64,000 nucleotides of DNA from Candidatus Poribacteria bacterium. Lineage in GTDB: Bacteria > Poribacteria > WGA-4E > WGA-3G. Of the stretch, positions 19,040 through 56,832 are shown in pieces (position 1 is the first letter of the stretch; each line of letters begins with the position of its first letter). The notes below the pieces were generated by a model that was not told the origin of the DNA, did no database searches, and saw only the letters and a program-made list of their open reading frames with translations. The stretch spans positions 371,680-435,679 of the forward strand of contig OZ251518.1 of assembly GCA_965242965.1 (NCBI GenBank). Reading direction: 5' to 3'. A program made the position numbers and the translations under genes.

Positions 19040-19320
19040 GAGGTATTGCATTGAGACCAGGAGGTCTCTTCCCTACCGGAAGGCATCGGGCCCATCTCTG
19101 TAGTTCGGGATCGCCTGATCCCGAACGGTTCAGGATCGGGCGATCCTGACCTACAGAGGTGAGGCGGTCTGACTCCAAAACGCATGGCGAGGGACAGGCC
19201 CTCGCCCTACGGTGAAGGGGGGGGCTTTCTGCCGCCGCGGCCCCGGTAGGCGCGCCGCCCTATTGCATCGAGACCGGAAGGTCTCGCCTACTGAGGCGGA
19301 TATAAGCGCGAATTCGTTTC
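19040..19320. repeat. REP cluster (families 1, 2, 3)
   Basis: Direct reading. Confidence 0.85.
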
Positions 19321-20674: not shown

Positions 20675-22597
20675 CTACGGATAAAATTGATACATCGTCG
20701 TATTCAAGAGGACATTCAGTAAACTCCACATGCTGCCCATAAGATAATCGCCGAGGACGAGCCCGAGGAAAAAGGGAATCACGCGCCGATAACTTTGGAT
20801 GCCGCCGTGGCGCAGAATCAACCATTTTAAGAACAAGGCAATGACGAGCGGTATCCAGAGATCAGACATTTCTTGGTTGCTTGCCATGACGTAGCCGAGC
20901 GGATGCAATGGCAGCCAGAAGAATTTGACGCGCAGATAGGACAATGCCATCATCACCGTAAATCCGATGCCGATGAAAATAACGCCTATCCAGTCCGTGT
21001 CAAGTGGATAGGTTATCCAATTCGTCAACCGCCCGAAATACTCGCGGCCGTAGCCGAGCGACCAGGGCCCGAAGTAGCCGGAATCCGAGCCGAATTGGTA
21101 ATAGAGGTGCAGTTGCACCCAGAAGGCGACGAGGGCACCGAATACGGTTGCGATGAGAATTGTCCAGAGCATTCGCCGTTGCGATATGCGTGCGACTTCG
21201 GCAATTTTAAACGCTTCTAGTTGATGCGGCATCTGTTGCGGACGATAGTCTCGGTTGAAAAAGCACACCGAGAGTGCGGTGAGATTCCGTGCGCCGAGTC
21301 GGTGCGTGCCTAGCACGGTGTTTAAGATGTATCGCGGTGCTTGCCAGTGGTAAGCATGCACAAAAATGCCGGATTCTGCGCGGATGCGCGTCGTCACTAT
21401 CGGCGTGATGAGGAACAGCACGGCGAATACGAACGCCAGCCACACTGCCATCCCTGCCTTGTAAAGCAGAAACGCGAACAACAAGATACCGAGCACAAAT
21501 CCCCAGACTGCCATCCGATAGGACATCGGTTCGTCGCGGGCTTGCGTTTGAGCCTCGCGTCCAAGAGAAGTCGCGCTTTTCAACACCGAGCGGAAGTGCC
21601 GTTTGCCTGTCCACGCGAAGAAAAAGCATAACCCGATGAACGCGCCGATAGTCTGCTCGTTGAGATAGGGGAAGTTCGGGATGCTGTGCCATCCTACCGC
21701 TCTTGCCAATGCGACTTCGTTCCGATAGAGGAAATAGAAAAAGGTGGTTGAGAACAGCACGTCTAACGGCATGAGGAACATGATGCCGATGGCGAACGGA
21801 TAGAAGGCGGTGATAATCGTCCCATAGAGACTAAACGGCGGCTCGTGAAACGTGAAAAATCGGCGCGTGACAGGGATGTGCGGAATGACCGGGTAGAGAT
21901 GACTTAATCCGTTAAAGAGACTGATACCGGCGGCAATGCTAAACCCTATCCACATCCGTTTATTCCGAAAGAAGCGGGAAGTAGGGTTTGTCATCGCAAG
22001 CGGCAGTTGGATGATGGGGAACGTGAGGCGTTCGCGTTCTGCCCACTGTCGGCGCAGGATAGTATTGAGGCAGAGAAAGATGAACGCCGTGACGAGGAAT
22101 AGCAATATCCACGCTGCGACAACAGGAACCCACACTCGCAGGTGTTGCGATAGATACAGGCTAGATTCGCCGAGGTAGTAACCGCGCAACGCGTCTCTAT
22201 CTGAAACGGTGAGCCATTGCGGGAGGTGATGCCAAAATAGCGTCCGCCATTCGTTTTCTTCCGTGGCGAACCAAGTGCTGTGTCCAAGCACCGACAAGAT
22301 GGCTTGCAAGACATCGCATCCGGCTAGAGTTGTGGCGAGGCTGAGCGTGACATAGAGGAATAGCAGTTCGCCTTGTCCGAATGCGAGACTGCTTTTCAGT
22401 AGGCGGATAACCCCGTTAATCAACATCACGGCGGTGAGGATGAAAATCACGTTGGAGAGCGGCACCACCCATGTCGGAAAGGTGTATCGCACCAATTCCA
22501 TTTGAATGAGGAAATAGCAGTTGATAGGCGCGGTGATAGCGAAAAGTAGCACGACGCGCCAAGTGAGGGTTCTCTGTTGTGGGGATTTCAATTCCAT
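20675..22597 (-). CDS. Polytopic integral membrane protein (641 aa, 12 or more predicted TM helices), function unknown
   Basis: Hydrophobic segments throughout. Start MELKSPQQ at 22597, preceded by a sigma70-like promoter TTGCAT-N17-TATCAT (about 22620..22668, minus strand). The caller's extension to 22711 is rejected. Confidence 0.6.
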   Translation of the reverse strand: MELKSPQQRTLTWRVVLLFAITAPINCYFLIQMELVRYTFPTWVVPLSNVIFILTAVMLINGVIRLLKSSLAFGQGELLFLYVTLSLATTLAGCDVLQAILSVLGHSTWFATEENEWRTLFWHHLPQWLTVSDRDALRGYYLGESSLYLSQHLRVWVPVVAAWILLFLVTAFIFLCLNTILRRQWAERERLTFPIIQLPLAMTNPTSRFFRNKRMWIGFSIAAGISLFNGLSHLYPVIPHIPVTRRFFTFHEPPFSLYGTIITAFYPFAIGIMFLMPLDVLFSTTFFYFLYRNEVALARAVGWHSIPNFPYLNEQTIGAFIGLCFFFAWTGKRHFRSVLKSATSLGREAQTQARDEPMSYRMAVWGFVLGILLFAFLLYKAGMAVWLAFVFAVLFLITPIVTTRIRAESGIFVHAYHWQAPRYILNTVLGTHRLGARNLTALSVCFFNRDYRPQQMPHQLEAFKIAEVARISQRRMLWTILIATVFGALVAFWVQLHLYYQFGSDSGYFGPWSLGYGREYFGRLTNWITYPLDTDWIGVIFIGIGFTVMMALSYLRVKFFWLPLHPLGYVMASNQEMSDLWIPLVIALFLKWLILRHGGIQSYRRVIPFFLGLVLGDYLMGSMWSLLNVLLNTTMYQFYP

Positions 22598-22804
22598 CTG
22601 TCGCTCGATTTTCGTTGGAGTGGTTTTCTGAAAACGCAATGTTTTTGATGATAACAGAATTCCATTTGCAATGCAAGTGAAAATGTGGTATGCTATAAAT
22701 ATGAACAGCAATTTTCGGAATGGTATCAGCGAACTCGCGCGGGCGAGTCGGCATCGTTTAACGGAGGATTTATTGATGAGGGTGTTTCATAAATACCGAA
22801 AGGC

Positions 22805-31884: not shown

Positions 31885-31913
31885 GAGGCAAACTTTTTTT
31901 GGAGGAACCAGCA

Positions 31914-34814
31914 ATGAAAAACGTAGATGCTGAACTCATTGAAGCCTTTTTAGATGGCGACGAAGGTGCTTTCACCAAGTTGGTGAGGAAGCATGAAAAG
32001 GCTGTCCATGCGCTTGCGTGGCGGAAGGTAGGCGATTTTCAGGCCGCTGAGGAGATTACGCAAGATGCGTTCGTTAAGGTGTATCACAAGTTGTCCACGC
32101 TCAAAAACCGGAACCAGTTCGCGGGCTGGCTATATGTGATTACAGACCGGCTCTGTATCGAGTGGCATCGCAAGAAACGCGTTCCGATGGGGTCCTTGGA
32201 GGCGATGGCACCCGGTGAGCTTGAGGAGCACTATTACTCCGGGCATCTGGCGGCGGAACGGGAAGCGGCGGTTGCCGAGCGTAAGCGCGAGGCAGTCAAG
32301 CAAATTCTCCGGAGACTCCCGGAGAGTGAACGCACGGTTGTCTCGTTGCACTATCTCGGCGAGAAGACTTGCGAGGAAATCGGCGAGTCCCTCGGCGTGT
32401 CAACGAACACCGTCAAGAGTCGGCTGCATCGCGCGCGGAAGCGATTGAAAGCCGAGGCAGAGTCGCTCCGCGAGATGTTGGGCGATGTCCCCCTTCCAGC
32501 GATGTTCACGGGTAATATCCTACGTGCTGTTGCGCGTGCAACACCGCCTGCGCCGAGCGGCGGTAACCCGTTAGTGCCGTGGGCGGTGTCGCTTTCAACG
32601 GCGGTATTGCTTTTCTTGCTGGCCGGTTTGGGTGCGCAGCACCTGCTCCGTTTCCAGCAACCGTATAGTTTTGTGGCAGACTCGGCAATGACGGTGGAGA
32701 TTGTGGATGCGCCGGTGAGTCTTCCGCAGCAGGCGAAGCCGGCGTTGCGGACGCGGTTCGGCAACACGGCTGAGTCGGGTAAGCACCGCGGTGCTGGTTC
32801 GCGGACGGATGCGTTACTTGTAACCGCTGCTGCGGATGATGCACAGGTCTTGGATGCCGCACAGCGGTGGCATCAAACTAATGGGCCTTCAGGCGGCGCG
32901 GTCACGTCCCTTTTTGTCACCTCTGAAAATGAACTCTATGCCGTTGGAGAGGGGAGCCTTTTCAAGTTGGCTGCCGATAGAGAGACTTGGACTTTCGTCA
33001 CCGGCGATTTGCCTGTTGACAATTTCGGTTCGCCGATGGCAGAGCGGGGTGACACGCTCTATATTGCCTGCGAATCAGAATTGTTTGCGTCAACCGATGG
33101 CGGTGAAACGTGGGATTCTGTCGCGCCATGTCCGCCGGGCAATCGCGCGCTTGCCTTGCTCATTACCGACGATGCGTTTTATCTCGCGCTTGAGGCAGAG
33201 GGGATGTTTCGTTCCACCGATGAAGGTAAAACGTGGCACCCGTTTAATGCGGGGTTAGCGCAGCCGTTGGCAGTGCGTCATCCGTCGACAGCCAACGCGA
33301 TTTTGTCAGCCGCTGTTCTTGGAAACACAGTGTTTGCCGGAACAAGCCAAGGGCTCTATCGCCTTCATTCCAATAGAGAAGTGTGGGAGAAAATGCCGGT
33401 TGCAGGCAACCGCAAGATCTCTTCCATCGCTGTTGTTGAAAACCGCGTCTATTTCTGCGCCGATAAACAGCATGACGAACGTTCGTCGATGCTCTTCGTT
33501 TCAATCGACTACGGGGATTCGTGGGCAGAAATTACGCCTGAACTCCGGCAGAGGATGACACCGCTCACCGTCGGAGGTGTCAAATTAGTAGGCGCAGGGA
33601 AAACGGTCTTGGGACTCGGTGCCGGTGTGATACGTTCTACCGATAATGGCAACACGTGGGCCTATCTCGGTTTCCACCGGGATGCGTTTACCCTCCCGAT
33701 GTTCCCCGCTGTGGCGTTGGACGAAAAGACGTTCTTCTTAACGGGGCCGATGGGAGTCAGGCGTTCAACCGACGGCGGCCACACATGGCATGAATTGATG
33801 AATGGCATTGTGCAGACCCGAGTTTTGGATTTGGCACGGGTTAATAACGTTCTCTACGCCGCAACCTACGGAGGTATCTTCCAATCTGCGGACAGCGGTG
33901 AACGGTGGACAGAAGTGACTATCGTTGGGTTACCGCCGCATTTTGAGGGCCGTTTAGGACATCCGAAAATTATAGTAGCGAACGGCACGCTTTACGTTAA
34001 AGCCTACCACTTGACCGAATGCTTTCTATTAGAGTTAGTTTCGGATGGGAATGTGTTGGTGCCGGTTGAAGGCATTCCACCGTTTGGAGAAGAGTATGGC
34101 GAGTGGTTAAGGAAAAATGCGGAGATTTTCTCCAAGACGAGCCTTGGTGAAGAAGCGGTGAACGAACTCGTGGGACAGAACCGGCGGGCATTTCAGAAAC
34201 ATGCGCGAGCCGGCGCATTCGCTGTCAGTGGGGAGACATTCTACTTTGGAGACGAACAGCGGCGGCTCTTCCGATGGAGGTTTGGCGGCAGTGAATGGCA
34301 CGACACAGGCCTGGAAAATGCCCGCAGTCTTTCTCCCGACACTGACGATGGTTTCCGGTTAGCCGCTTCCAATGACGTTGTCTATGTTGGAAAAGGTGAT
34401 GGACACCTCTTCCAATCGCGGGATAGCGGTGACACGTGGCAGGACATCACCGCGAACCTCCCCGCGTTCGGCAGTATTCAGGAGATAATGTTCGCGGGTT
34501 CAGCCGTATGCGTCGCCACAGATACGGGAGTCGTCACGTCAAGCGATGGCGAAAATTGGTATCCTATCACCGATGCATCGGAAGTCCCGATTGTGATGCG
34601 CGAGTTGGCGATAGACGGCTCTCGTGTTTACGGTGCAGCTGGTGAGGCTGTCTATCGGCTAAAACACGAGACCTTGACGTGGGTGCAGATTGCATCAGAG
34701 CTGCCGGAGGGAGTGACTTCTCTCGTTGCTGATGGGGATGTGTTGTATATAGGCACAGAGGGACGCGGCGTGCTTCGGTTGCAGGTTAACCGCGACGAGG
34801 AGATAGACAAGTAG
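31914..34814 (+). CDS. ECF sigma factor (sigma-70 regions 2 and 4) fused by one TM helix to a large extracytoplasmic BNR/Asp-box beta-propeller domain. A one-component sigma/anti-sigma-like regulator, 966 aa.
   Basis: Sigma region 2 (QDAFVKVY...WLYVITDRLCIEWHR) and region 4 HTH (LPESERTVVSLHYLGEKTCEEIGESLGVSTNTVKSRLHRARKRLK). TM PWAVSLSTAVLLFLLAGLG. Eight or more S-x-D-x-G-x-T-W repeats. Confidence 0.75.
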   Translation: MKNVDAELIEAFLDGDEGAFTKLVRKHEKAVHALAWRKVGDFQAAEEITQDAFVKVYHKLSTLKNRNQFAGWLYVITDRLCIEWHRKKRVPMGSLEAMAPGELEEHYYSGHLAAEREAAVAERKREAVKQILRRLPESERTVVSLHYLGEKTCEEIGESLGVSTNTVKSRLHRARKRLKAEAESLREMLGDVPLPAMFTGNILRAVARATPPAPSGGNPLVPWAVSLSTAVLLFLLAGLGAQHLLRFQQPYSFVADSAMTVEIVDAPVSLPQQAKPALRTRFGNTAESGKHRGAGSRTDALLVTAAADDAQVLDAAQRWHQTNGPSGGAVTSLFVTSENELYAVGEGSLFKLAADRETWTFVTGDLPVDNFGSPMAERGDTLYIACESELFASTDGGETWDSVAPCPPGNRALALLITDDAFYLALEAEGMFRSTDEGKTWHPFNAGLAQPLAVRHPSTANAILSAAVLGNTVFAGTSQGLYRLHSNREVWEKMPVAGNRKISSIAVVENRVYFCADKQHDERSSMLFVSIDYGDSWAEITPELRQRMTPLTVGGVKLVGAGKTVLGLGAGVIRSTDNGNTWAYLGFHRDAFTLPMFPAVALDEKTFFLTGPMGVRRSTDGGHTWHELMNGIVQTRVLDLARVNNVLYAATYGGIFQSADSGERWTEVTIVGLPPHFEGRLGHPKIIVANGTLYVKAYHLTECFLLELVSDGNVLVPVEGIPPFGEEYGEWLRKNAEIFSKTSLGEEAVNELVGQNRRAFQKHARAGAFAVSGETFYFGDEQRRLFRWRFGGSEWHDTGLENARSLSPDTDDGFRLAASNDVVYVGKGDGHLFQSRDSGDTWQDITANLPAFGSIQEIMFAGSAVCVATDTGVVTSSDGENWYPITDASEVPIVMRELAIDGSRVYGAAGEAVYRLKHETLTWVQIASELPEGVTSLVADGDVLYIGTEGRGVLRLQVNRDEEIDK

Positions 34815-35018: not shown

Positions 35019-35807
35019 ATGAAACTATTTCAGATATTAACTGTGTGGACGCTCGTTTGCCTCTTGTTTAACTCGGGATGTCTGGACCGGCCCAATGACA
35101 TAGTTGATATAACAACTGAGGCAGCCGACTCGGCGGTTGAGACGGCGGAATCCGAAGATGCCGCAACTCCGCCAACGGCCGAGCAAACATTTGCCAAACT
35201 GCAAACCGCGTTTCCAACCGTTTTCGATGCCGAGTTCAAAACGCTCAGGAAAATCGTCAATTCAAAAACCTATCTCGATTTTCTACGGCGGGAGAACTCA
35301 ATTGATAAAACGGTTCAGGATTTTGATGAACTGTTAGAAGTCGTTCCTCCACCGACGGAGCGTTACTTGCCGTTTTTGGAGGAACATTTTAAGAACCCCG
35401 GTGACATAGACGTAGTCGGCATGCATCGCATGACGATATACACGCGCAACATGTTAGCGCGGCTGTGCGAAAACCCGCAGAACATATTTCTTATCATGAA
35501 CGATCTTGCGCAGGCCTCTGGGAACGATGAGCATATTGACAAATGGATGTCCTTCCGCTTTGGAAATCAGGCTCCTGATGTCATTGAGCTCTTCAGCGCG
35601 ACCGTGGCTGATTTCGTCAAGAAAGTTGAAAGCGAAGATCAGGCACGTATCCAGGAGCACTTTGAACAATATGGTAGGAATGCGGGGCTGTTATGGCTTG
35701 CACTCCGCGAACCTGTTTTAATCGGCCACATCTTGAACGATTTTCCGAATACGGACATTTTCCTGCGTTGGGTTGATGGAAAATGTAATCAACTTGATGT
35801 GCACTAA
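35019..35807 (+). CDS. Hypothetical secreted protein or lipoprotein (262 aa)
   Basis: Signal peptide MKLFQILTVWTLVCLLFNSGC. Same promoter module as the sigma-fusion gene. Confidence 0.55.
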   Translation: MKLFQILTVWTLVCLLFNSGCLDRPNDIVDITTEAADSAVETAESEDAATPPTAEQTFAKLQTAFPTVFDAEFKTLRKIVNSKTYLDFLRRENSIDKTVQDFDELLEVVPPPTERYLPFLEEHFKNPGDIDVVGMHRMTIYTRNMLARLCENPQNIFLIMNDLAQASGNDEHIDKWMSFRFGNQAPDVIELFSATVADFVKKVESEDQARIQEHFEQYGRNAGLLWLALREPVLIGHILNDFPNTDIFLRWVDGKCNQLDVH

Positions 35808-35859
35808 CCTGAGGGTGTTTCATAACTCCGTTTCGGTATTTATCCCTCTTGGGGAGCAG

Positions 35860-36370
35860 GCGACTCCCGCGCCTTCTTGGTAGGAGAGACCTCCCGGTCT
35901 CGATGCAATAGGGCGGCGCGCCTACCGGAGCCGCGGCGGCAGAAGGTCCCCCTTCATCGTAGGGCGAGGGCCTGTCCCTCGCCATCGCTCGCGCAACCCA
36001 ACGATCGCGGGGGACAGGCCCCCGCGCTACGGTATCCGGAACGGCTCCATTTACCGTAGGGCGAGGGCCTGTCCCTCGCCATGCTGCGATCGCGGAGAAA
36101 CCCGCTCGCCTGCGCATATGGAAATTTCCGAGGGCCCCCGCGCGACAGAGCCTGAAACGCTCGCGGGGGACAGGCCCCCGCGCTACGGTAGCCGGAACGG
36201 CTCCATTTACCGTAGGACGAGGGCCCTCGCATGCCACACGCGCATGCGAGAGGGTTTCCCTCGCCATGCGTTTGGCTGTCAAACCTCATCACCTCTGTAG
36301 GTCAGGATCGCCTGATCCTGACCCGTTCGGGTGCAGGCGCACCCGAACTACAGAGGTGGGCCCGATGTTT
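35860..36370. repeat. REP cluster (families 3, 1, 2)
   Basis: Direct reading. Confidence 0.85.
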
Positions 36371-36647: not shown

Positions 36648-37484
36648 ATGATGAAACGAACCTACCTGATGACGCTCATCGCGTTGTTTTCGATGATTTT
36701 TCTCAGCTACGCGAGCGCGCAAGTTATCTTTTTCGCTGACTTTGAAGCCGATTCTTCCGAGGCTATCCCGGATGCCAGCGTCAATGACCCGGGCAGTTAC
36801 GAACCGGAGAACCCCGGCATGGCATGGGAGGCAGCGTCTGATTTCCCCGAAGGCGGAGAGGGCGCGCTCCACCAGACCGTGGAAGGCTGCGGCAACTCCG
36901 GCAACACGCCGTTACCCGGCGTTGAGGATTTCACCGACGGTATCATTCAGGGTGTTTTCTCGTGGCAAGATGACGATGGCGTTGGATTCCAATTCCGCCG
37001 CGTCGGCGAAGACCAGGGCTATCTCGTCGCTTTCGGCTATAACGAGACACCGCAGATTGTCATCGGCAGCCTCGCCGATGGATGCTGCCCCTCCGGGCAA
37101 TGTCTCGACCAGTGCAGCTGCGAAAACGGCGGCAATGAGCTCCTCGGCGTAGACCACGGTTTAGGCCCAGAGCTCTCGCAAGACAATTCTGTCGCCTACT
37201 TTGGGCGGGTTGAAGTGACTGGCACGCTCATCCAGGTCTGGTATATGCCGCTTGCGGATGTGCCGGATCTGTTTGTCGATTCCGGTGAACTCGGCGATCC
37301 GGTCGCGGAGTTCGATGGGGCAGACCACGGCGGACCCGGCAGTGTCGGCATTTGGCACGAGAGTTGGGGCAACGGCCGCGTCGGCAGTTTGCTTGTCACC
37401 GGTCCGGATGGCTTCTCCACGACAGATGTCGATCCGCGCGCCAAACTCTCCACGACATGGGGCGATGTGAAAAACAGTTATTAA
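36648..37484 (+). CDS. Secreted Cys-rich protein, paralog 1 (concanavalin/LamG-like fold suspected). C-terminal tail AKLSTTWGDVKNSY.
   Basis: RBS AAAGGAGAAA. Signal peptide. ADGCCPSGQCLDQCSCENGG motif. 60% identical to 37658..38485. Confidence 0.65.
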   Translation: MMKRTYLMTLIALFSMIFLSYASAQVIFFADFEADSSEAIPDASVNDPGSYEPENPGMAWEAASDFPEGGEGALHQTVEGCGNSGNTPLPGVEDFTDGIIQGVFSWQDDDGVGFQFRRVGEDQGYLVAFGYNETPQIVIGSLADGCCPSGQCLDQCSCENGGNELLGVDHGLGPELSQDNSVAYFGRVEVTGTLIQVWYMPLADVPDLFVDSGELGDPVAEFDGADHGGPGSVGIWHESWGNGRVGSLLVTGPDGFSTTDVDPRAKLSTTWGDVKNSY

Positions 37485-37657
37485 GACGTGGACAGACGTA
37501 AATCTATCGTTTCCGGTAGGCGCGGTTTGAAATCGCGCCTACTGGTGACGTTCTGCGTCCGTCCTGAAAGTTCAGGCTGCGCGCTTTGCAAGTGCTTCTG
37601 AGCCTGAGCACGGCACGTTTTCGTGCCATCCTTCCTGACATACAAAGGAGCGATTTC

Positions 37658-38485
37658 ATGAAGACGCAACTCATCTTTTCGATTCTGATTTTAGTGCTAT
37701 TTGTTTCTTTTCACGCCGGTGCCCAGGTCGCCTTCTATGCGGATTTTGAGCCCGGCTCAAACGAGGCGAAACCGAACGCCGCTGTGAACGACATCAAGCG
37801 GTATAAACCGGAGAACGCGGGAACCATCTGGGGCGAAGCAGATTTCAAAGGCGGTAAACTCGGCGGGAAAACTGCGATGGCGCAAACCGCCGAGGGCTGC
37901 GGTATCTCTGGCAATACGCCGCTTCCCGGCGTTACAGACTTCTCCGATGGCATCATCCAAGTGATTTTCTCCTTCGGCGATGACGATAGTTTCGGTGTGC
38001 AATTCCGCAGAAAGGGCGATGATAAAGGGTATCTCGTCGTTTTCGGCTATAACGAAACGTCGCAAGTCATTTTCGCCGACCTCGCCGATGGATGTTGTCC
38101 CTCCGGGCAATGTCTCGACCAGTGCGGCTGCGAGAACGGCGGCAAGGAATTGGAAGGTGTTCCCCACGGGTTAGGCGGTGGGTTGGACCAGACGAATGCC
38201 GTCCCCTACTTGGGCCGCGTGGAGGTAAAGGGCAACAACGTCAAAGTCTGGTATATGAAACTTGAGGAAGTCAAGGACCTCCATGCTTCTTCCGAAGACC
38301 TCGGGGCTCCTATCCTTGAGTCGGACAAGGCGACGAACAAGTCGGCTGGGAGTGTCGGTATCTGGCACGAAAGTTGGGGCATGGGACGCGTGGATAGCAT
38401 CCTCGTCACAACCGCCAGCGGCTTTGATGTTCATGTCAAAGACAAATTGACGACGACGTGGGGCGATGTGAAGAGCGGGTATTAG
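37658..38485 (+). CDS. Secreted Cys-rich protein, paralog 2. C-terminal tail DKLTTTWGDVKSGY.
   Basis: RBS AAGGAG. Signal peptide MKTQLIFSILILVLFVSFHAGAQ. Same cysteine motif. Confidence 0.65.
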   Translation: MKTQLIFSILILVLFVSFHAGAQVAFYADFEPGSNEAKPNAAVNDIKRYKPENAGTIWGEADFKGGKLGGKTAMAQTAEGCGISGNTPLPGVTDFSDGIIQVIFSFGDDDSFGVQFRRKGDDKGYLVVFGYNETSQVIFADLADGCCPSGQCLDQCGCENGGKELEGVPHGLGGGLDQTNAVPYLGRVEVKGNNVKVWYMKLEEVKDLHASSEDLGAPILESDKATNKSAGSVGIWHESWGMGRVDSILVTTASGFDVHVKDKLTTTWGDVKSGY

Positions 38486-38494
38486 GCCGTGCCT

Positions 38495-39005
38495 ATGCTC
38501 GGCGCGCGAGGGATAGGCCCTCGCGCGCGCCCCAGTTTGGCGAGGGAAACCCTCTCGGATGCGCGTATGGCATCCGAGGGCCCAAGCCCTACGAACCAGG
38601 AAACGGTTTTTGTCCCGTTCGTAGGTTGGCGAGGGGAACCCTCTCGCCTGCGCGTATGGCATGCGAGGGCCCTCGCCCTCCGGTGCGATGGAGCGTTTTT
38701 TTCACCGTAGCGCGGGGGCCTGTCCCCCGCGATCGCAGCATGGCAAGGGGAACCAGCTCGGATGCGCGTATGGCATCCGAGGGCCCCCGCCCTCCGGTGA
38801 GAAGGAGCATTTTTATCGTAGCGCGGGGGCCTGTCCCCCGCGATCGCAGCATGGCGAGGGACAGGCCCTCGCCCTACGGTGCAAGAGATGGTTATTTTGT
38901 TGCATTCGTAGGCTGGCGAGGGACAGGCCCTCGCCCTACGGTATATTGGCTTGGCGAGGGAAACCCGCTCGGATGCGCGTATGGCATGCGAGGGCCCTCG
39001 CCCTA
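38495..39005. repeat. REP cluster (family 1 variants, about 12 hairpins)
   Basis: Direct reading. The caller ORF 38458..40323 is wrongly extended across it. Confidence 0.85.
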
Positions 39006-39051
39006 CGATTCAGGAGACGGTTTTCAGAAGACGGTTTTTAGGAGGCCCACC

Positions 39052-40323
39052 ATGAAAGTTACAAACGTTGAACGTATTCTCGTAGATGTCCCCTTCACCC
39101 CGCGCCAACAGCAAATTACCACGCAAAGCGTTTCCACTGTCTACAACTGGTCCCTCCTTGAATTGTGCAAGGTGACGACAGATAGCGGGCATGTAGGTTG
39201 GGGTGAGACGGTTATCCACTATACTTATCGCCGTGTGAGCGATGAGAGCGTGGCGCGCGTGCTTGGAGAAAGTCCCGCCGCCCTCATGAACGATGATTCC
39301 CTCGGTGCCGGCTTGCAGATGGCACTTTTCGATGTGGTAGGTAAGATTTTAGAGGTGCCGGTGTATCAACTGCTCGGCATGCAGTGTCGCGAGGCTGTGC
39401 CTATTTCGTGGTGGAGCATTGATGCTTCGCCTGAGAGCTGGGCGGCGGAAGCGGCAGATGCCGTTGCGCACGGCTACACCAGCTTTAAGAATAAACCGCG
39501 CCCGTGGTGGGATATTATTGCGCAGGTGGAGGCAGTCGCGGCGGTTGTGCCGGACAATTTCAAGTTGGATCTGGATCCGAACGCTTCCTTGCGCGATGCC
39601 GATACAGCCATCCCGATTTTGCAGAAATTGGCGGCCTATCCAAACGTGGCGATGTTTGAGACACCGATTCCACAGAGTGATGTAGCGGGAAATAAGCAGA
39701 TTCGGCAGGCTGTTGACAGGCCGATTGCGATGCACTTTGGTTCGCCGCCCTATACCACTTGCGTTCGTGAGGATGTGTGCAGTGGTTTCGTCATCGGCGG
39801 TGGGAAATCGCAGGTAATGCGCGAGGGGCAACTCAGTGCAGCAGCGGACATGCCGTTCTGGCTCCAGATCGTCGGTAACGGCTTGACGACGACGTGGGCA
39901 GGGCATTTGGGGAGTGTGCTGACGCATGCCACCTGGCCGGCGATTACCTGCATCAATCTTTATAGTGAGCACCTCATTACGCAACCGGTTCAGGTTTCGG
40001 AAGGCGTTCACAAGATTCCCGATGCGCCGGGGTTAGGCGTTGAGGTGGACGAAGACGCTGTTGAACGCTTCCGCGTCCCCGCCGAAAAGTTGGATGCTGA
40101 GGGTTACACGATTCATCCCGTGCCGGAGATAATCAAAACCGCTGTTTATCCTGATGGCAGTTGTATCCATATGGCGGGTGATGGGTTGGGTTATTTCAAC
40201 GCTGGCAACGGCGAGGCGCAGGTAGAAGGCGCGCGTTTGGCGTTGACATTCAACGACGGTTCTGATGCGTGGGCAAAATTGTTTGCGCAGGCGGGCGAGG
40301 CACCGGTGCATGGGGAGTGGTAA
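39052..40323 (+). CDS. Enolase-superfamily enzyme (mandelate racemase / muconate lactonizing enzyme-like), 423 aa
   Basis: RBS AGGAGG plus ATG at 39052. KLDLDPN...D...MFETP...D metal-ligand pattern. Confidence 0.65.
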   Translation: MKVTNVERILVDVPFTPRQQQITTQSVSTVYNWSLLELCKVTTDSGHVGWGETVIHYTYRRVSDESVARVLGESPAALMNDDSLGAGLQMALFDVVGKILEVPVYQLLGMQCREAVPISWWSIDASPESWAAEAADAVAHGYTSFKNKPRPWWDIIAQVEAVAAVVPDNFKLDLDPNASLRDADTAIPILQKLAAYPNVAMFETPIPQSDVAGNKQIRQAVDRPIAMHFGSPPYTTCVREDVCSGFVIGGGKSQVMREGQLSAAADMPFWLQIVGNGLTTTWAGHLGSVLTHATWPAITCINLYSEHLITQPVQVSEGVHKIPDAPGLGVEVDEDAVERFRVPAEKLDAEGYTIHPVPEIIKTAVYPDGSCIHMAGDGLGYFNAGNGEAQVEGARLALTFNDGSDAWAKLFAQAGEAPVHGEW

Positions 40324-40384
40324 TGCCGCGAAGCGCGTCTCTTTCGTCAAGGAAGTCAATCCAAACGCCGTTTTTTTTATCCTA

Positions 40385-40990
40385 GCGTGATGGCCTGTCC
40401 CCCGCGAGCGTTGGAGCGCGCGGACGATGGCGAGGGACAGGCCCTCGCCCTACGATGAAGGGGCGTTTTTTTCCGTAGCGCGGGGGCCCTCGGATGCCAG
40501 ACGCGCATCCGAGCGGGTTTCCCCCGCGATGGCTCAAGCACCGTTTTTTTTTCGTAGCGCGGGGGCCTGTCCCCCGCGATCGTCCATCGTCAAGTTATGT
40601 TTTTAGGTCCTACGGACTGAAGAGAACAAGAAACGTTTTTTTTCATTCTGTAGTTTGTGATCGCCTGATCACAAACGGTTCAGGAGCAGGTGCTCCTGAA
40701 CTACAGGGCCTGGCGCGCGAAGGATGGCGAGGGACAGGCCCTCGCCCTACGGTAAGGCACGCCGTTTTTTCGCGTAGCGCGGGGGCCTGTCCCCCGCGAT
40801 CGTTGGAGCGCGCGGACGATGGCGAGGGGAACCCGGCAGGCGTTGGGCCCACCTCTGTAGTTCGGGAGCACCCGCTCCCGAACGGGTCAAGATCAGGCGA
40901 TCTTGACCTACAGGGGTGAGGCAGTCTGACACCAACACGCATGGCGAGGGACAGGCCCTCGCCCTACGGTGAAAGCGGCAATCAAGCCTG
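40385..40990. repeat. REP cluster (families 1, 2)
   Basis: Direct reading. Confidence 0.85.
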
Positions 40991-47964: not shown

Positions 47965-48600
47965 TGGTTCAACGTCGCGGGGGACAGGCCCCCGCGCTAC
48001 GGTTAAAAAAACGCCGCCCCATCCCGTAGGGCTTGGGCCCTCGCATGCCATACGCGCATGCGAGAGGGTTTCCCTCGCCATGCGTTTTGGTGTCAGAGCG
48101 CCTCACCCCTGTAGTTCAGGAGCGCCTGCTCCTGACCCGTTCGGGAGCGGGCGCTCCCGAACTACAGAGGGGGAAACCCTCATCGTAACGATGGAGATCG
48201 CGGGGGACAGGCCCCCGCGCTACGGTAGGTGGGGCGTGCGCTCATCACGTCTGTAGGTCAGGAGCGCCTGCTCCTGACCCGTTCGGGAGCGGGTGCTCCC
48301 GAACTACAGAGGGGGAAACCCTCATCGTAACGATGGAGATCGCGGGGGACAGGCCCCCGCGCTACGGTAGGTGGGGCGTGCGCTCATCACGTCTGTAGGC
48401 AGGAGCACCTGCTCCTGACCCGTTCGGGAGCGGGTGCTCCCGAACTACAGAAGGGGAAACCCTCATCGTGACGATGGCGATCGCGGGGGACAGGCCCCCG
48501 CGCTACGGTAGGTGGGGCGTGCGCTCATCACGTCTGTAGTTCAGGAGCGCCTGCTCCTGACCCGTTCGGGAGCAGGCGCTCCCGAACTACAGAAGGGGAA
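47965..48600. repeat. REP cluster. From 48107, a tandem array of 3.4 copies of a 143-bp composite unit (family 2 double hairpin + linker + family 1 hairpin).
   Basis: Units start at 48107, 48250, 48392 and 48535 with near-identical sequence. Confidence 0.85.
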
Positions 48601-48624
48601 ACACTCATCATCCTGATTTTAAAC

Positions 48625-48654
48625 TTGCAATGCATTGCGAATTTAAGGTATAAT
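48625..48654 (+). promoter_or_regulatory. Sigma70 promoter TTGCAA-N18-TATAAT. The ATG at 48661 lies 7 nt downstream, so the mRNA is leaderless or near-leaderless.
   Basis: Consensus -10. No RBS before the ATG. Confidence 0.5.
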
Positions 48655-48660
48655 CACATT

Positions 48661-51600
48661 ATGACAACACTTAACCTGAAACCAACTCACAAAGCGATAA
48701 CCGCCTATTATGCCGCACTCAACAGGTATCAACAGCACGGGGTAACCCACGAAACCGCCGTGCGCGCCGCCTTTCAAGCACTCCTCGAAGCCTGCACGCG
48801 ACAACTTGACTGGACGCTGATTTGTGAACAGACACTACGCCTCCCCGATAGAAATCCTATCCGCCTCGATGGCGCGCTGCTCGACGAACATAGTTTGCCC
48901 CGCGGCACCTGGGAGGCAAAAGGCGTTAAAGGAGCTCTCCGCGCCGAAATCAATAAGAAATTCGACGCAGGCTATCCCCAGGACAACATCCTCTTCCAAA
49001 CACCGGAACGCGCCATTCTCTATCAAAACGGACGCGAAGTGATGGACGCAGACATCACCGCACCGGAAACGCTTGTCACGGTGTTGCAGACGTTCTTTGC
49101 CTACGAGCGCGCGAACGCCGCCGAATGGCGCGCCGCCGTCGCACGCTTCAAAGAACTTGTCCCCGAACTCGGGGCGGAGGCGGCGAACCTTATCCAAACG
49201 CAGCACGAAACAAACGCGCAATTCCGCGCCGATTTCACCGCGTTTCACGAACTCTGCAAAACCGCCATCAACCCGAATCTCTCGGCGGCGGCTGTCCAAG
49301 AGATGCTCGTCCAACATCTTCTCACCGAACGGATGTTCCGCACTGTCTTCGAGGATCCGGATTTCGCCCACCGCAATATCATCGCCCGCGAAATTGAAAA
49401 AGTCCTCAAGGGAACACTGGCGAACTTCCTCAACCGCGGCCAACTGCTCCAAAAACTCACGCCGTTCTATCGCGAAATCGAACGCGAGGCAGCTACACTC
49501 GTCGATTTCTCGCAGAAACAGCACTTCCTCAACACCGTTTACGAGCAGTTCTTCCAAGGCTTCTCCGTGAAGCAGGCGGATACGCACGGCATCGTTTACA
49601 CCCCGCAGCCTATCGTCGATTTTATGGCGAACAGCGTCCAGCATATCCTCCAAACCGAATTCGACCACGCGCTGGCAGATGAAGGCGTTCACATCATCGA
49701 TGCGTTCGTCGGCACCGGCAACTTCATCGTCCGACTCATGCGCGACATCCCCAAGACGAAACTGGAGGCGAAATACCGAAACGAACTCTGGTGCAACGAA
49801 GTGCTGTTATTGCCTTATTACATCGCCACGCTCAACATCGAGCACGAATTCTACGCCGCCACCGGCACCTATCTGCCGTTTGAAGGCATCTCCCTCGTGG
49901 ATACGTTCGAGTTAGCGGAAGACCGGCAGTTGTCGCTCTTAACCGCTGAAAACACGGCGCGTGTGGCGAAGCAGCAAGCCTCGCCGATGTTCGTCGTCAT
50001 CGGAAATCCGCCCTATAACGCCGGGCAAATCAACGAAAACGATAACAACAAAAATCGGAATTATCCGACGCTGGAGGCGCGCGTGCGAGAAACCTATGCG
50101 AAAGACTCCACCGCAACGCTCAAAAATTCGCTCTATGACACTTACGTCAAGGCACTTCGTTGGGCTTCCGATAGGATTGGCAAACAGGGGATCGTCGCGC
50201 TCGTCACGAATAACAGTTTTCTTAGCGGCACCTCGTTTGATGGCATGCGGAAACACCTCGCTGAAGACTTTGATGCCATCTATGTCGTCGATTTGGGCGG
50301 CAATGCGCGGCGTGATAAACTTGTCGCTGATGCAAGCGTTTTTGGTATCCGCGTCGGGGTGAGTATTAATTTTTTCGTGAAAAACCCTTCCCGGCGATCG
50401 CGGGGGACAGGCCCCCGCGCTACGGTGCCTTCCGGTCTCGATGGGATCGCGGGGGACAGGCCCCCGCGCTACGGTAACGGGGAAAATTCCGCGCGCATCT
50501 TCTATTACCGCACCGATGACGCGTGGAACAAACACCAGAAATTCGATTTCTTGACGCAAACTGAACACGTTGGGAATGTGGACTGGCAAACGCTAGAACC
50601 CGATGCACGAAATACCTGGCTCACCGAAGGACTCAACCCTGAATTTTTGACGTTCATGCCGATAGGGAGCAAAACGGCAAAACGGGAAAAAAAGGAGCCC
50701 GCCGGGGTGATATTCCACCAGTTCAGCAACGGTTTGAAAACAAACCGGGATGCATGGGCTTACAACTTCAACCGCGATGCGCTCGCTGAAAACATGCAGC
50801 GCATGATAGGTGCCTATAACGCGCAGGTCTCCCAGTGGCGCGATAGGGACGACAACGCGGAGATAAGTGTTGACGATTTTGTCGATGCCGACTTGCGGAA
50901 AATCAAATGGAGTGGCGATTTGAAAACCGCTCTCAAAAAAGGGGTTTTCGCGGCGTTTTCCAATGAAAAATTGCGAACGTCTCTCTACCGTCCTTTCACC
51001 CGTTCTTTTCTGTTCTTCGACCGGCTCATGAATAACGGCACCTTTCTTCAGCCCTATATCTTCCCTACGCCGGAGACAGAAAAGGAAAATCTCGTTCTCT
51101 CTGCCGCGGGAACTGGGCATCGGACGGGATTTGGCTGTCTCGTCTCAAACGTCATTCCCAATGTAGATCTTGCCTATGAAAAAGGGCAGTGCTTCCCGTT
51201 CTACTTTTACGATGAAGATGGCACTAACCGCCGAGAAAACATCACCGATTGGGCATTGGAAAACTTCCGCAAGCACTATGGCGACGATACCATCACGAAA
51301 TGGAACATTTTCCACTACACCTACGGTATCTTGCATCATCCTGCGTATCGCGAACGTTACGCCGCTGATCTCAAGCGCGATTTACCGCATATCCCCTACG
51401 CCGACGATTTCTGGGCATTTGCAAACGCCGGCGCACGGTTAGCGGAACTTCATGTCAACTACGAGGCGCAGCCGGAGTATCCGCTCACGTTTGTCGAAGA
51501 TGCGACGCGGCAGTTGGATTTCCGCGTGGAAAAAATGAGGTTGTCCAAGGACAAGACCTCGCTTATCTATAACGAGTTTCTGACGTTGGAGGGGATTCCT

Positions 51601-55700: not shown

Positions 55701-56450
55701 CTATTTCAAGGCACGTTTCATTTTCCCCCACGTCGTTGTCAATTTATGTGTCGCTTCGACGGCGAGTCCTTGCGTAGCGAGCTGCAAGAGTTCATCTTCA
55801 GACAACGCCCGGTCGAATATCATCACCTCATCAATAATTCCTTTGAAATAGCGATTTCCGCCGCAACAATCCACCCATGCGATATTCAGCGCGCCGATTT
55901 CTTGCTCAACGTGCGGAATATCGTTGACTCCCTTATCCAATCCGTTGGCATCGGTATAGATGTAAAGCGTCGCCTGCTTGGGTTCAATTGTCATCGCGGC
56001 GAGTGCCCATTCGTCTTGCGGAATTTCGGGTCCGCCGTCCCACCGCCATGTGTCAGCGGCGTTGTTATTCCAGACGTAGTGCAGGAAATCGTTATCGCCG
56101 AAGATGAGTTCGGTGGCAGTCGGTGTGCGCGAACCGACGATGCCTGCCCAGTCGTTGGCTTTCCAGCCGTTAATCCACGCGGCGTAAGTCGTTGTCGTGG
56201 TGATAAGGTTATAGTCGGGGATTTGGATTTTCTGTGAGCTGCCGTCAAACTTCGCGCCTTTCCCGACGCGTGCGTCTACCCAGGTCAGTTTTCCGACAGC
56301 TTCGCCATCGTCTTTACCGATGCTATCGGTTGCATCTCCATCGAGGGGCCAGTAGTTGACGAGGCCATCTTGCAGGTCCGCGGCGATAGCGATGTTGAGT
56401 GCCATGCAGAGGCAAATGATAACAAAGCCGGTGGTTTTAAGCGTTAACAT
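55701..56450 (-). CDS. Secreted LamG/concanavalin-like domain protein. C-terminal tail HKLTTTWGKMKRALK.
   Basis: Signal peptide. YWPLDGDATD...GKGAKFDGSSQKIQIP...DEVMIFDRALSEDEL LamG pattern. Confidence 0.6.
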   Translation of the reverse strand: MLTLKTTGFVIICLCMALNIAIAADLQDGLVNYWPLDGDATDSIGKDDGEAVGKLTWVDARVGKGAKFDGSSQKIQIPDYNLITTTTTYAAWINGWKANDWAGIVGSRTPTATELIFGDNDFLHYVWNNNAADTWRWDGGPEIPQDEWALAAMTIEPKQATLYIYTDANGLDKGVNDIPHVEQEIGALNIAWVDCCGGNRYFKGIIDEVMIFDRALSEDELLQLATQGLAVEATHKLTTTWGKMKRALK

Positions 56451-56499
56451 AAGCGTTCCTCTCTGTTGTTCTGAGTCAGAATTTGTGGTGGGCCCCTCC

Positions 56500-56800: not shown

Positions 56801-56832
56801 TCACACCGCCCTACGTGCTGTCCGAACGAGGC

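What the first reader, a model, noticed from the sequence alone, without database searches (positions are those of the whole stretch)
36648..38485. Tandem paralogous secreted Cys-rich proteins, plus a third LamG-like protein at 55701..56450, share a conserved C-terminal KL[ST]TTWG[DK][VM]K tail
Two adjacent genes encode about 275-aa secreted proteins that are 60% identical and share the cysteine cluster ADGCCPSGQCLDQC[SG]CENGG. Both end with (A/D)KL(S/T)TTWGDVK(N/S)(S/G)Y. An unrelated LamG-like secreted protein 17 kb away ends with HKLTTTWGKMKRALK. A short conserved extreme C-terminal motif on otherwise different secreted proteins is the hallmark of a C-terminal sorting or processing signal (compare PEP-CTERM, T9SS CTD, LPXTG). 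This particular motif is not one I recognise.
Basis: seen in the sequence. Interest (0 to 1): 0.55.

Follow-up and report, generated by a model that had tools for sequence, protein, structure and literature searches.

The report
Poribacteria-wide C-terminal tag on secreted proteins
Three secreted proteins in this window end in the same roughly 20-residue tail (…V-E-P-x-x-K-L-T-T-T-W-G-x-L-K…), which turns out to be an apparently undescribed C-terminal tag carried by many unrelated exported, mostly sugar-binding, proteins throughout the sponge-symbiont phylum Poribacteria, implying an unknown sorting or docking partner.

Summary
The codons for K-L-x-T-T-W-G occur three times in the window against 0.00 expected, each 10-11 residues before the stop of a signal-peptide protein. 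Conservation is at the protein level, not the DNA level.

Of these, 107 are named Poribacteria, and 128 of 133 matches lie 11-18 residues from a stop. The module is about 20 residues: φ-[AP]-V-[ED]-[PA]-x-x-K-L-[ATS]-T-T-W-G-x-[LIV]-K-x(2-5).

It sits on at least 19 unrelated families, including LamG, DUF1080, CBM9, discoidin, a PD40 propeller, a lamin-tail protein and an ankyrin/HExxH protein. Signal peptides were found on 103 of 109 complete carriers. A profile of the tail finds 1,135 representative proteins among 1.84 billion.

AlphaFold2 models it as a low-confidence appendage. Pfam and NCBIfam have no model that matches it, and no paper was found.

It has no membrane helix, so it is not of the LPXTG or PEP-CTERM type. 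At 20 residues it is also not a T9SS CTD or a dockerin.

The best reading, which is inferred, is a shared recognition tag that docks or retains anchor-less glycan-binding modules at the cell envelope. The partner is unknown. The leads are DUF6785 membrane proteins and TPR–FG-GAP cassettes.

The parts
36648..37484 (+). Secreted Cys-rich protein A (278 aa). Its fold is unknown but beta-rich. It carries the C-terminal tail.
   Evidence: ORF. About 200 homologues, those that carry a name being Poribacteria. No Pfam or NCBIfam hit. AF2 mean pLDDT is 61.6. hhalign to the LamG profile gives only 77% probability.
36648..36719 (+). Signal peptide of protein A (MMKRTYLMTLIALFSMIFLSYASA|QV).
   Evidence: Read directly from the sequence. 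The cleavage site is inferred from the A-x-A rule.
37428..37481 (+). Tail of protein A: VDPRAKLSTTWGDVKNSY.
   Evidence: AF2 pLDDT is 30-41 over residues 254-278.
37655..38485 (+). Secreted Cys-rich protein B (276 aa), a tandem paralogue 59% identical to A, with the tail.
   Evidence: An AAGGAG sequence lies 7 nt upstream of the ATG at 37655.
38429..38482 (+). Tail of protein B: VHVKDKLTTTWGDVKSGY.
55701..56450 (-). Secreted LamG (concanavalin-like) carbohydrate-binding-type protein (249 aa) with the tail.
   Evidence: Pfam Laminin_G_3 E=3.5e-18. AF2 pLDDT is 97-99 for the domain. The best PDB match is the arabinan-binding domain 4 of AbnA, E=1.3e-10.
55704..55763 (-). Tail of the LamG protein: AVEATHKLTTTWGKMKRALK.
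   Evidence: AF2 pLDDT is 52-57 over residues 230-249.
39055..40323 (+). Enolase-superfamily (MR_MLE) enzyme, a conserved downstream neighbour of the Cys-rich pair. It is context, not part of the tag.
   Evidence: Pfam. The same order is seen in L021, L200, L202 and L203.
20675..22711 (-). Polytopic membrane protein DUF6785+DUF6784. In other Poribacteria its orthologue lies directly after the Cys-rich pair and the enolase gene. It is a candidate functional partner and only a lead.
   Evidence: 88% identical to the L021 copy. Pfam assignment of that family. Synteny. Adjacency statistics.

Best explanation
The tail is a phylum-specific, protein-level C-terminal recognition tag. Its form is φ-[AP]-V-[ED]-[PA]-x-x-K-L-[ATS]-T-T-W-G-x-[LIV]-K followed by 2-5 variable, often basic, residues. 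The minimal core is K-x4-W-[GA]-x-[IL]-K. It is appended as a flexible extension to proteins that Poribacteria export through Sec with a cleavable type-I signal peptide. Most carriers are small, single-domain beta-sandwich modules of carbohydrate-binding type (LamG, DUF1080, CBM9, discoidin) with no lipid anchor, membrane helix or catalytic domain.

The proposed mechanism runs as follows. After export the tag stays disordered until a shared trans-acting partner of the cell envelope binds it. This docks or retains these otherwise anchor-less glycan-capture modules at the cell. In logic it resembles a dockerin or a short linear targeting motif, not a sortase substrate.

Shown here: the tag's existence, its strict C-terminal position, its link to signal peptides, its spread over unrelated folds, its restriction to one lineage, its greater conservation than the domains that carry it, and its lack of a membrane helix. 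Inferred: that a partner exists, that the outcome is docking or retention rather than outer-membrane export or cleavage, and where in the envelope this happens.
For: - **Above chance and protein-level.** There are 3 matches in the window against 0.00 expected. Synonymous sites differ and no similarity continues past the stop.
- **Strictly C-terminal.** 128 of 133 genome matches lie 11-18 residues from a stop. Nearly all of the top 150 profile hits end within about five residues of the protein end.
- **Independent conservation outside the search pattern.** V at -5 occurs in 122 of 125 tails, P/A at -3 in 112 of 125, and L/I/V at +8 in 122 of 125.
- **Lineage.** 107 of 118 loci are named Poribacteria, out of 185,579 species scanned.
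- **Export.** 103 of 109 complete carriers have a signal peptide. With the same heuristics the rate is 92-98% for carriers and 34-42% for neighbouring ORFs. 116 of 133 are of SPI type, and only 2 have any further TM-like segment.
- **Unrelated carriers.** There are 19 sequence clusters with at least seven different Pfam folds.
- **Scale.** 1,135 representatives at 50% identity score E<=1e-3.
- **More conserved than its domain.** Mean pairwise identity is 0.59 for the tail and 0.26 for the LamG domain, and the best 18-column window inside the domain reaches 0.43. This set was chosen by the core pattern, so its core columns are biased. LamG orthologues selected by domain alone keep the tail down to about 45% identity.
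- **Flexible appendage.** pLDDT is 52-57 for the tail against 97-99 for the LamG domain, and 30-41 in the Cys-rich family.
- **Module replacement.** In P0408, 45% identical to the window's LamG protein, a cohesin plus dockerin stands exactly where the tail would be. LamG relatives labelled Planctomycetota and Hodarchaeota lack the tail.
- **Glycan-use context.** Carriers lie in loci with enolase-superfamily, GFO/IDH/MocA, PhyH, FG-GAP/ASPIC and DUF6785 genes.
Against: - No partner has been identified.
- No gene restricted to tail-bearing genomes was found next to tail genes. Recurrent neighbours belong to families that are generally expanded in Poribacteria or widespread outside the phylum.
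- Nothing shows whether the tail is kept or cleaved in the mature protein.
- The strict invariance of T-T-W and of two Lys would suit an enzyme recognition or modification site equally well.
- The docking inference rests largely on an argument from need (lone binding modules with no other anchor) and on a single cohesin-dockerin replacement case.
- The AF2 low confidence is expected for any short terminal extension and does not discriminate between the readings.
Confidence: 0.5

Rival explanations
1. The tail is a cleaved secretion or sorting signal. A dedicated, still unknown envelope machine recognises it, moves the protein across or onto the outer membrane, and removes it. This is functionally like the T9SS CTD, with a possible cut at or near the conserved V-[ED]-P.
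For: It has the same distribution logic as known C-terminal sorting signals: many unrelated signal-peptide proteins in one lineage, strictly terminal. A conserved V-E/D-P lies upstream of the core. Kamke et al. 2014 (PMC3909097) already noted TIGR04183-like hits in Poribacteria with no T9SS genes, leaving an open secretion question.
Against: The tail is only about 20 residues and is not a folded domain. No TIGR04183, TIGR04131 or other NCBIfam model hits it at E<=1. No protease or translocon gene recurs next to carriers. There is no evidence of cleavage.
Confidence: 0.25
2. The tail is a site of post-translational modification or covalent cross-linking. Candidates are O-glycosylation of the invariant Thr pair, modification of the Trp, or use of an invariant Lys for attachment to the cell wall. 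The enzyme would be a membrane protein acting in the periplasm.
For: K0, T3, T4, W5, G6 and K9 are invariant or nearly so, which is typical of enzyme recognition. Large polytopic membrane proteins (DUF6785/6784) sit next to tail genes of three different families. An STT3-family oligosaccharyltransferase gene lies 2 kb upstream of the Cys-rich pair in L202 and L203.
Against: The tail has no N-x-S/T sequon. STT3 is near the carriers in only one orthologous locus and is absent from this window. DUF6785 is widespread outside tail-bearing lineages (473 relatives in metagenomes, most loci without tail genes). Its adjacency enrichment is modest: 16 observed against 10.6 expected, p≈0.012. Its conserved synteny with sugar-acid enzymes suggests a transporter instead.
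Confidence: 0.12
3. The tail is a self-association or membrane-binding element. Either it is a foldon-like beta-hairpin that oligomerises lectin modules for multivalency, or it is a short cationic amphipathic helix (L1-W5-L8 on one face, flanked by Lys/Arg) that lies in a membrane surface.
For: AF2 draws a short helix over the core in both models, at low confidence. The i/i+4/i+7 hydrophobic spacing and the basic residues after K9 are visible in the sequences. Lectins commonly need multivalency, which is general knowledge.
Against: Lipid-binding helices tolerate substitution, whereas this motif keeps specific polar residues (T-T, G, two K) across hundreds of families. Thr-rich sequence and Gly are poor helix formers. 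No oligomer prediction could be run.
Confidence: 0.08
4. The tail is not a signal at all. Either it is an integral last strand of one domain family, or it is a by-product of a DNA or RNA element at gene ends (a terminator, or one of the abundant palindromic repeats).
For: Most carriers are LamG-like jelly rolls. The window is full of intergenic palindromic repeats that start just after genes.
Against: The tail is carried by unrelated folds, including a beta-propeller, an ankyrin/HExxH protein, a lamin-tail protein, discoidin and CBM9. It is not packed in the models. Homologous LamG domains outside the phylum lack it. Codons differ at synonymous sites and similarity ends at the stop codon.
Confidence: 0.02

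Closest known systems
PEP-CTERM / exosortase, LPXTG / sortase and related tripartite C-terminal sorting signals (GlyGly-CTERM, MYXO-CTERM, PGF-CTERM)
   Same: These are lineage-restricted short conserved motifs at the extreme C-terminus of many unrelated signal-peptide proteins, with many copies per genome. LamG proteins are frequent carriers of PEP-CTERM in other phyla (from my own knowledge). There is a superficial A-V-E-P versus V-P-E-P resemblance.
   Different: The defining tripartite build (motif, hydrophobic transmembrane helix, basic cluster) is absent. After V-E-P come about 15 polar residues with two Lys and three Thr. No NCBIfam model hits the tail, and no sortase-like gene was seen nearby.
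T9SS C-terminal domain (TIGR04183 type A, TIGR04131 type B)
   Same: It is a C-terminal signal on Sec-exported proteins of diderm bacteria that has no membrane helix, is used by many unrelated cargo proteins, and has a phylum-level distribution. T9SS CTDs end in a Lys-rich last strand (from my own knowledge).
   Different: The CTD is a folded Ig-like domain of 70-100 residues. This tag is about 20 residues with low pLDDT. No HMM hit was found. T9SS genes are reported absent from Poribacteria (PMC3909097).
Dockerin-cohesin docking (cellulosome-type)
   Same: It is a C-terminal add-on that brings many different secreted glycan-active modules to a common scaffold without covalent chemistry. A close LamG homologue (P0408) carries cohesin plus dockerin exactly where the tail sits.
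   Different: A dockerin is a duplicated Ca-binding module of about 60-70 residues, and Pfam PF00404 does not hit the tail. No cohesin-like receptor for the tail is known.
Short linear C-terminal targeting motifs read by a receptor (PTS1/Pex5 TPR, KDEL, encapsulin cargo-loading peptide LTVGSLK-type, OMP beta-signal/BamD)
   Same: These are short, flexible, near-terminal peptides recognised by a shared receptor. TPR proteins recur beside tail genes.
   Different: PTS1, KDEL and the OMP beta-signal need the very last residues, whereas here the last 2-5 residues vary. Encapsulin cargo is cytosolic, whereas these proteins have signal peptides. Carriers are soluble beta-sandwiches, not beta-barrels.

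Membership tests
PEP-CTERM / exosortase substrates | P-E-P motif followed by a hydrophobic transmembrane helix and a basic C-terminal cluster | tested here: not met
   Tails read V-[ED]-P-x-x-K-L-T-T-T-W-G-x-L-K-x(2-5) with no hydrophobic stretch. NCBIfam shows no hit at E<=1.
PEP-CTERM / exosortase substrates | Exosortase (EpsH-family) gene in the genome | not tested
None was seen in about 1 Mb of tail-bearing loci.
LPXTG / sortase substrates | LPXTG-like motif plus membrane helix plus basic tail | tested here: not met
   There is no LPXTG and no helix.
T9SS C-terminal domain | Folded beta-sandwich CTD of 70-100 residues matching TIGR04183 or TIGR04131 | tested here: not met
   No NCBIfam hit, including for the last 113 residues of the 968-aa carrier and for the 22-residue tail alone. 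The tail is about 20 residues with pLDDT 30-57.
T9SS C-terminal domain | T9SS core genes (SprA/Sov, PorV, PorU and others) present | not testable with these tools
   Whole genomes were not available. Kamke et al. 2014 report the structural genes absent (PMC3909097).
Dockerin | Duplicated Ca-binding F-hand repeats (PF00404) | tested here: not met
   Pfam gives no dockerin hit on any of 23 carriers. PF00404 does hit P0408, where it replaces the tail.
Outer-membrane protein beta-signal | Terminal aromatic residue on the last strand of a beta-barrel | tested here: not met
   The last residues are variable and mostly R/K/Q. Carriers are soluble jelly rolls.
Encapsulin cargo-loading peptide | C-terminal peptide on cytosolic cargo next to an encapsulin shell gene | tested here: not met
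   103 of 109 carriers have Sec signal peptides. No shell gene recurs among the neighbours.
Laminin_G_3 / concanavalin-like lectin (protein at 55701..56450) | Match to PF13385 and a jelly-roll fold | tested here: met
   E=3.5e-18, 66.6 bits against a cut-off of 27.6. AF2 pLDDT is 97-99. Foldseek probability is 1.00 to carbohydrate-binding jelly rolls.
Concanavalin-like fold (Cys-rich pair at 36648..38485) | Profile or fold similarity to a jelly-roll lectin or CBM | tested here: inconclusive
   hhalign to the LamG profile gives 77% probability over 62 columns. The AF2 model is poor at 61.6. The only plausible Foldseek hits, CBM66 and galectins, have E>0.1.

The most novel reading that the evidence does not exclude
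The TTWG tail is the address label of a previously unknown envelope system unique to Poribacteria. This would be either a new outer-membrane export route or a non-covalent surface scaffold. It would assemble perhaps around a hundred (a rough, unmeasured estimate) different lectin-like modules into a cell-bound glycan-capture coat, a functional counterpart of the cellulosome or the Bacteroidota Sus/T9SS surface. It would use a 20-residue linear tag with no membrane helix and no folded domain.
Probability: 0.4. Interest if true: 0.8.

Novelty: new variant of a known kind. Interest (0 to 1): 0.62.

Why it matters
Poribacteria are among the dominant, uncultivated symbionts of marine sponges and are thought to feed on host matrix glycans. 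How they display or secrete their very large set of binding proteins is an open question. A 2014 paper noted sorting-domain-like hits with no matching secretion system.

A phylum-wide tag on more than a thousand protein clusters gives three things. First, it is a direct handle for finding the missing machinery, through peptide pull-downs, AF-multimer screens and phylogenetic profiling. Second, it is a simple sequence rule for listing the exported glycan-capture proteome in any Poribacteria genome. Third, it is a candidate new HMM for annotation pipelines, because the carriers that have a name here are called 'hypothetical protein' or 'LamG domain-containing'.

It also widens the known designs of bacterial C-terminal signals beyond the tripartite sortase type and the folded T9SS domain.

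Tried and rejected
- **Short tail profile in the search for homologous proteins.** The 44-residue version returned only 33-79-aa gene fragments, because candidates are chosen by shared words. That search was largely wasted, but its fragments allowed the later full HMM search.
- **P0155 and P0295.** These are the only internal, multi-copy hits of the profile. They are repetitive junk translations ('QQKLTTTLQNLG') and not tail relatives.
- **DNA-level repeat or terminator origin.** Rejected.
- **T9SS CTD on neighbouring WD40 proteins**, the class flagged by Kamke 2014. Their C-termini show neither a tail nor a CTD.
- **Lipoprotein versus tail exclusivity.** Only 5 of 121 tail signal peptides look SPII-like, against 20 of 175 for non-tail ones. 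These are probably false positives, and the contrast is too weak to use.
- **Fold of the Cys-rich family.** The model is poor and no significant PDB match was found.
- **DUF6785.** There is no PDB relative, no NCBIfam model and no paper.
- **Neighbour enrichment for a dedicated sorting enzyme.** Only generally expanded families turned up: PhyH, GFO/IDH/MocA, TPR, FG-GAP/ASPIC, WD40 and ECF sigma.
- **Literature searches** for the motif and for Poribacteria with LamG, sorting or secretion found nothing relevant.
- **Exact-sequence look-up of the window's LamG protein** found no record.
Full report
**1. Observation**

The three ORFs are present as described. They lie at 36648..37484 (+, 278 aa), 37655..38485 (+, 276 aa counted from the ATG that follows an AAGGAG) and 55701..56450 (-, 249 aa).

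The two tandem proteins are 59% identical. They share the LADGCCPSGQCLDQC[SG]CENGG cluster, and six cysteines are invariant in 64 homologues. They end in AKLSTTWGDVKNSY and DKLTTTWGDVKSGY.

The third protein is a Laminin_G_3 protein (E=3.5e-18) ending in HKLTTTWGKMKRALK. All three begin with classic Sec signal peptides.

'TTWG' occurs only three times in the six-frame translation, each time 10-11 residues before these stops. The codon pattern for K-L-x-T-T-W-G gives 3 matches against 0.00 expected from 100 shuffles.

The three DNA stretches differ at synonymous positions (CTC/TTG, TCC/ACG/ACA, GGC/GGG), and similarity stops at the stop codon. What is conserved is therefore a peptide, not a DNA or RNA element.

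**2. Source organism and spread**

Among homologues of the Cys-rich and LamG proteins, those that carry a source name are almost all called Candidatus Poribacteria, and several sit on contigs of 4-10 Mb.

- 107 loci are named Poribacteria.
- 7 are unnamed 'uncultured bacterium' MAGs.
- 1 is a sponge-derived bin labelled Pseudomonadota that has two C-terminal tails.
- 3 (Muribaculaceae, Bacteroidaceae, Synechococcus) are internal chance matches.

Of 133 matches, 128 place the first Lys 11-18 residues before a stop. Carriers include a MAG whose isolate name refers to 3000 m depth (L085). The trait is therefore probably not confined to sponge symbionts.

**3. Anatomy of the tag**

I aligned 125 distinct tails on the motif. 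This showed conservation at positions that were not part of the search pattern.

- Val at -5 in 122 of 125 tails.
- Pro or Ala at -3 in 112 of 125.
- Gly at -1 in 59 of 125.
- Leu, Ile or Val at +8 in 122 of 125.
- The stop codon at +12 to +14 in 112 of 125.

The module is φ-[AP]-V-[ED]-[PA]-x-x-K-L-[ATS]-T-T-W-G-x-[LIV]-K-x(2-5).

Family members that failed a strict regex still carry degenerate versions such as RRVTTTWGKIK, KLPLTWGSLK and KATTTWALLK. The minimal core is therefore K-x4-W-[GA]-x-[IL]-K. No hydrophobic helix and no cysteine follow the motif.

**4. What carries it**

Of 109 complete carrier ORFs, 103 have a signal peptide. The six without one are fragments of 52-140 aa. With the same heuristics the rate is 92-98% for carriers and 34-42% for other ORFs of the same loci.

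Signal peptides are almost all SPI type. Only 2 of 133 carriers have any further TM-like segment.

The 103 carriers of 150 aa or more fall into 19 sequence clusters. Their Pfam matches are:

- Laminin_G_3
- CBM9_1
- F5/8 type C
- 3-keto-disaccharide hydrolase/DUF1080
- DUF3108-like
- a PD40 propeller
- a 968-aa lamin-tail-domain protein
- a 622-aa ankyrin protein with an HELGH motif
- several clusters with no Pfam hit

Most carriers are 230-300 aa, that is, one binding module and nothing else.

An HMM of the tail was searched against 1.84 billion representative proteins. It found 1,135 at E<=1e-3. In the top 150 the match ends within about five residues of the protein's C-terminus in nearly all cases. 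A few gene fragments read on past the tail, and two junk repeat translations are the only internal hits.

**5. Relation to the domains it follows**

LamG orthologues selected by the domain alone keep the tail down to about 45% identity. Variants of the form KLA[IVM]TW[GA]xLK occur. V231, K236, W241 and K245 are nearly invariant in that alignment.

In 78 LamG carriers the 18 tail columns have a mean pairwise identity of 0.59, against 0.26 for the domain. The best 18-column window inside the domain reaches only 0.43. That set was selected by the core pattern, so its core columns are biased. The flanking Val was not part of the selection.

AlphaFold2 models the LamG domain at pLDDT 97-99 and the last 20 residues at 52-57. 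In the Cys-rich family the tail scores 30-41.

The LamG model matches carbohydrate-binding jelly rolls. The best match is AbnA domain 4 at E=1.3e-10, followed by sialidase lectin domains and clostridial HCN domains.

LamG relatives labelled Planctomycetota and Hodarchaeota lack the tail. In P0408, 45% identical to the window's LamG protein, the sequence leaves the family consensus at '...RLATVGIKRS' and continues into a cohesin and a dockerin. A recognised docking module thus occupies the tail's position.

**6. Comparison with known signals**

Pfam (2025) and NCBIfam 20.0 (June 2026) have no model that hits the tail. This was tested on whole carriers, on the last 113 residues of a large carrier, and on the 22-residue tail alone.

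Full-text searches for the motif, and for Poribacteria together with sorting, LamG or secretion, found nothing on it. The only related remark is in Kamke et al. 2014. They report that some poribacterial proteins hit the T9SS CTD model although T9SS genes are absent (PMC3909097).

The tail fails the defining features of each known class considered:

- LPXTG and PEP-CTERM-type signals, because it has no membrane helix or basic cluster.
- The T9SS CTD, because it is not a folded 70-100-residue domain.
- Dockerins, because it has no Ca-binding repeats.
- The OMP beta-signal, because the last residues vary and carriers are not barrels.
- Encapsulin cargo peptides, because the carriers are exported.

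**7. Genomic context and leads**

Recurrent neighbours in 118 tail loci belong to families that are broadly expanded in Poribacteria: PhyH, GFO/IDH/MocA, TPR, FG-GAP/UnbV_ASPIC, WD40 and ECF sigma factors. Two patterns stand out.

(a) Operon-like TPR – FG-GAP/ASPIC – tail gene(s) – cupin cassettes occur with about seven independent tail families. The propeller gene is directly adjacent to the tail gene in 9 of 12 loci.

(b) A roughly 640-aa polytopic membrane protein (DUF6785+DUF6784) is the second pattern.

- It lies beside tail genes of three different families (L021, L066, L069, L082), with at least three paralogue groups.
- The order Cys-rich pair → enolase-superfamily enzyme → DUF6785 (→ GFO/IDH/MocA) is conserved in L021, L200, L202 and L203.
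- In this window the orthologue, 88% identical, has moved to 20675..22711.
- As a reverse test, I fetched 80 DUF6785 loci from metagenomes. With a strict tail pattern 17 of them hold tail ORFs, and with a relaxed pattern 20 do.
- The tail gene is often the very next gene, 50-160 bp away on the same strand.
- The enrichment of adjacency within those loci is modest: 16 observed against 10.6 expected, p≈0.012.
- Most DUF6785 loci have no tail gene. DUF6785 is therefore more likely a transporter of the same catabolic loci than the tail's reader.

No sortase, peptidase or translocon candidate emerged.

**8. Interpretation**

The following are shown:

- The tag is real and conserved at the protein level.
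- It occurs across the phylum Poribacteria and is almost absent from the other genomes sampled.
- It is strictly C-terminal.
- It sits on Sec-exported proteins of many unrelated folds.
- It is more conserved than the domains that carry it.
- It is structurally unpacked and has no membrane anchor.

The rest is inferred. Such conservation across unrelated carriers requires a common trans-acting reader. Most carriers are lone binding modules with no other way of staying with the cell or with an enzyme, and a homologue carries cohesin-dockerin in the same place. I therefore favour non-covalent docking or retention at the envelope (confidence about 0.5).

The rivals are a cleaved export signal (about 0.25), a modification or cross-linking site (about 0.12), and an oligomerisation or membrane-surface element (about 0.08). 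A structural-strand or DNA-element origin is effectively excluded.

**9. Novelty and limits**

The tag belongs to the known general kind 'lineage-specific C-terminal signal on exported proteins'. Its design is not among the described ones, being short, polar and without a helix or a folded domain.

Three things were not measured: the number of carriers per genome, whether the tail is retained in mature proteins, and the identity of the partner. For the first, the window has 3 in 64 kb and other unselected Poribacteria DNA about 1 per 25-50 kb, so around a hundred per genome is only a rough guess.

Noticed in passing
window, nearly all intergenic regions (e.g. 261-765, 19059-19293, 35939-36367, 38656-38960, 40372-40985, 48060-48609, 56498-56830): The intergenic DNA is packed with short palindromic repeat families. 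One is a hairpin, GGCGAGGGACAGGCCCTCGCC / CGCGGGGGACAGGCCCCCGCG followed by CTACGG, with at least 40 copies. A second is an ~86-nt double hairpin, CTGTAGTTCGGGAGCG…CCTGACCTACAG, with 21 copies. A third is ATCGAGACCGGGAGGTCTCGCCTAC, with 16 copies. They create spurious long ORFs such as 35617..36282(-) and the false N-terminus of 38458..40323.
   Followed up: partly
window 20675-22711 (-); L021, L066, L069, L082, L200, L202, L203; L119-L198: A large polytopic membrane protein family (DUF6785+DUF6784, about 640 aa, at least 11 hydrophobic segments) has several paralogues. It lies in conserved clusters with tail genes, an enolase-superfamily enzyme and a GFO/IDH/MocA oxidoreductase. It has no PDB relative, no NCBIfam model and no literature.
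   Followed up: partly
L020, L027, L061, L065, L068, L078, L086, L100, L104, L106, L107, L113: Operon-like cassettes recur in the order TPR protein – FG-GAP/UnbV_ASPIC propeller (~560 aa) – one or two tail-bearing proteins – small cupin. Tail proteins of several different families take part.
   Followed up: partly
L202 5083-7083 and L203 2733-4733: An STT3-family oligosaccharyltransferase gene (PF02516, 666 aa) and a sigma-54 activator lie just upstream of the Cys-rich tail pair in two Poribacteria contigs. They are absent at that position in this window.
   Followed up: no
L199 6001-7293 (P0408): This protein is 45% identical to the window's LamG protein and has the architecture signal peptide – LamG – cohesin – dockerin. 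It sits on a 272-kb contig with Poribacteria-like neighbours (PhyH, GFO/IDH/MocA, xylose-isomerase-like TIM). No tail ORF lies within 13 kb.
   Followed up: partly
L204, L205, L207, L209 (IMG/VR contigs): Four of six matches to the tail pattern in the viral-contig collection are genuine C-terminal tails, three of them on LamG-like proteins ending KLKLTTTWGEVKK/R. Whether these contigs are truly viral was not checked.
   Followed up: no
window 4171-6299 (-): Two adjacent ORFs (386 and 323 aa) are built almost entirely of 105-nt (35-aa) tandem repeats, with some 84-nt spacings. At least 14 copies are present.
   Followed up: no
window 13835-16568 (-): Three tandem paralogous genes (232-242 aa, N-termini '…DPDSDYG.VVPDLPGC…') have 90-93% identical DNA cores.
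   Followed up: no
window 31899-34814 (+) and L202 1-1801: A 971-aa protein fuses an ECF sigma factor (regions 2 and 4) to a BNR/sortilin-type beta-propeller. It lies upstream of the Cys-rich pair here and in another Poribacteria genome.
   Followed up: no
window 48625-51813 (+); L200 2290-7143: The window ORF (1062 aa) has the coupler, methylase and C-terminal specificity domains of a Type ISP restriction-modification enzyme, with no nuclease or helicase domain hit. The related locus has a 1617-aa version that also carries Mrr_cat_2 and helicase domains.
   Followed up: no
P0121-P0154 and many of P0156-P0299: Public gene calls contain very many 30-100-aa 'proteins' that are just the last part of a tail-bearing gene. 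This suggests frequent truncated calls or pseudogene remnants of this gene class in Poribacteria assemblies.
   Followed up: no
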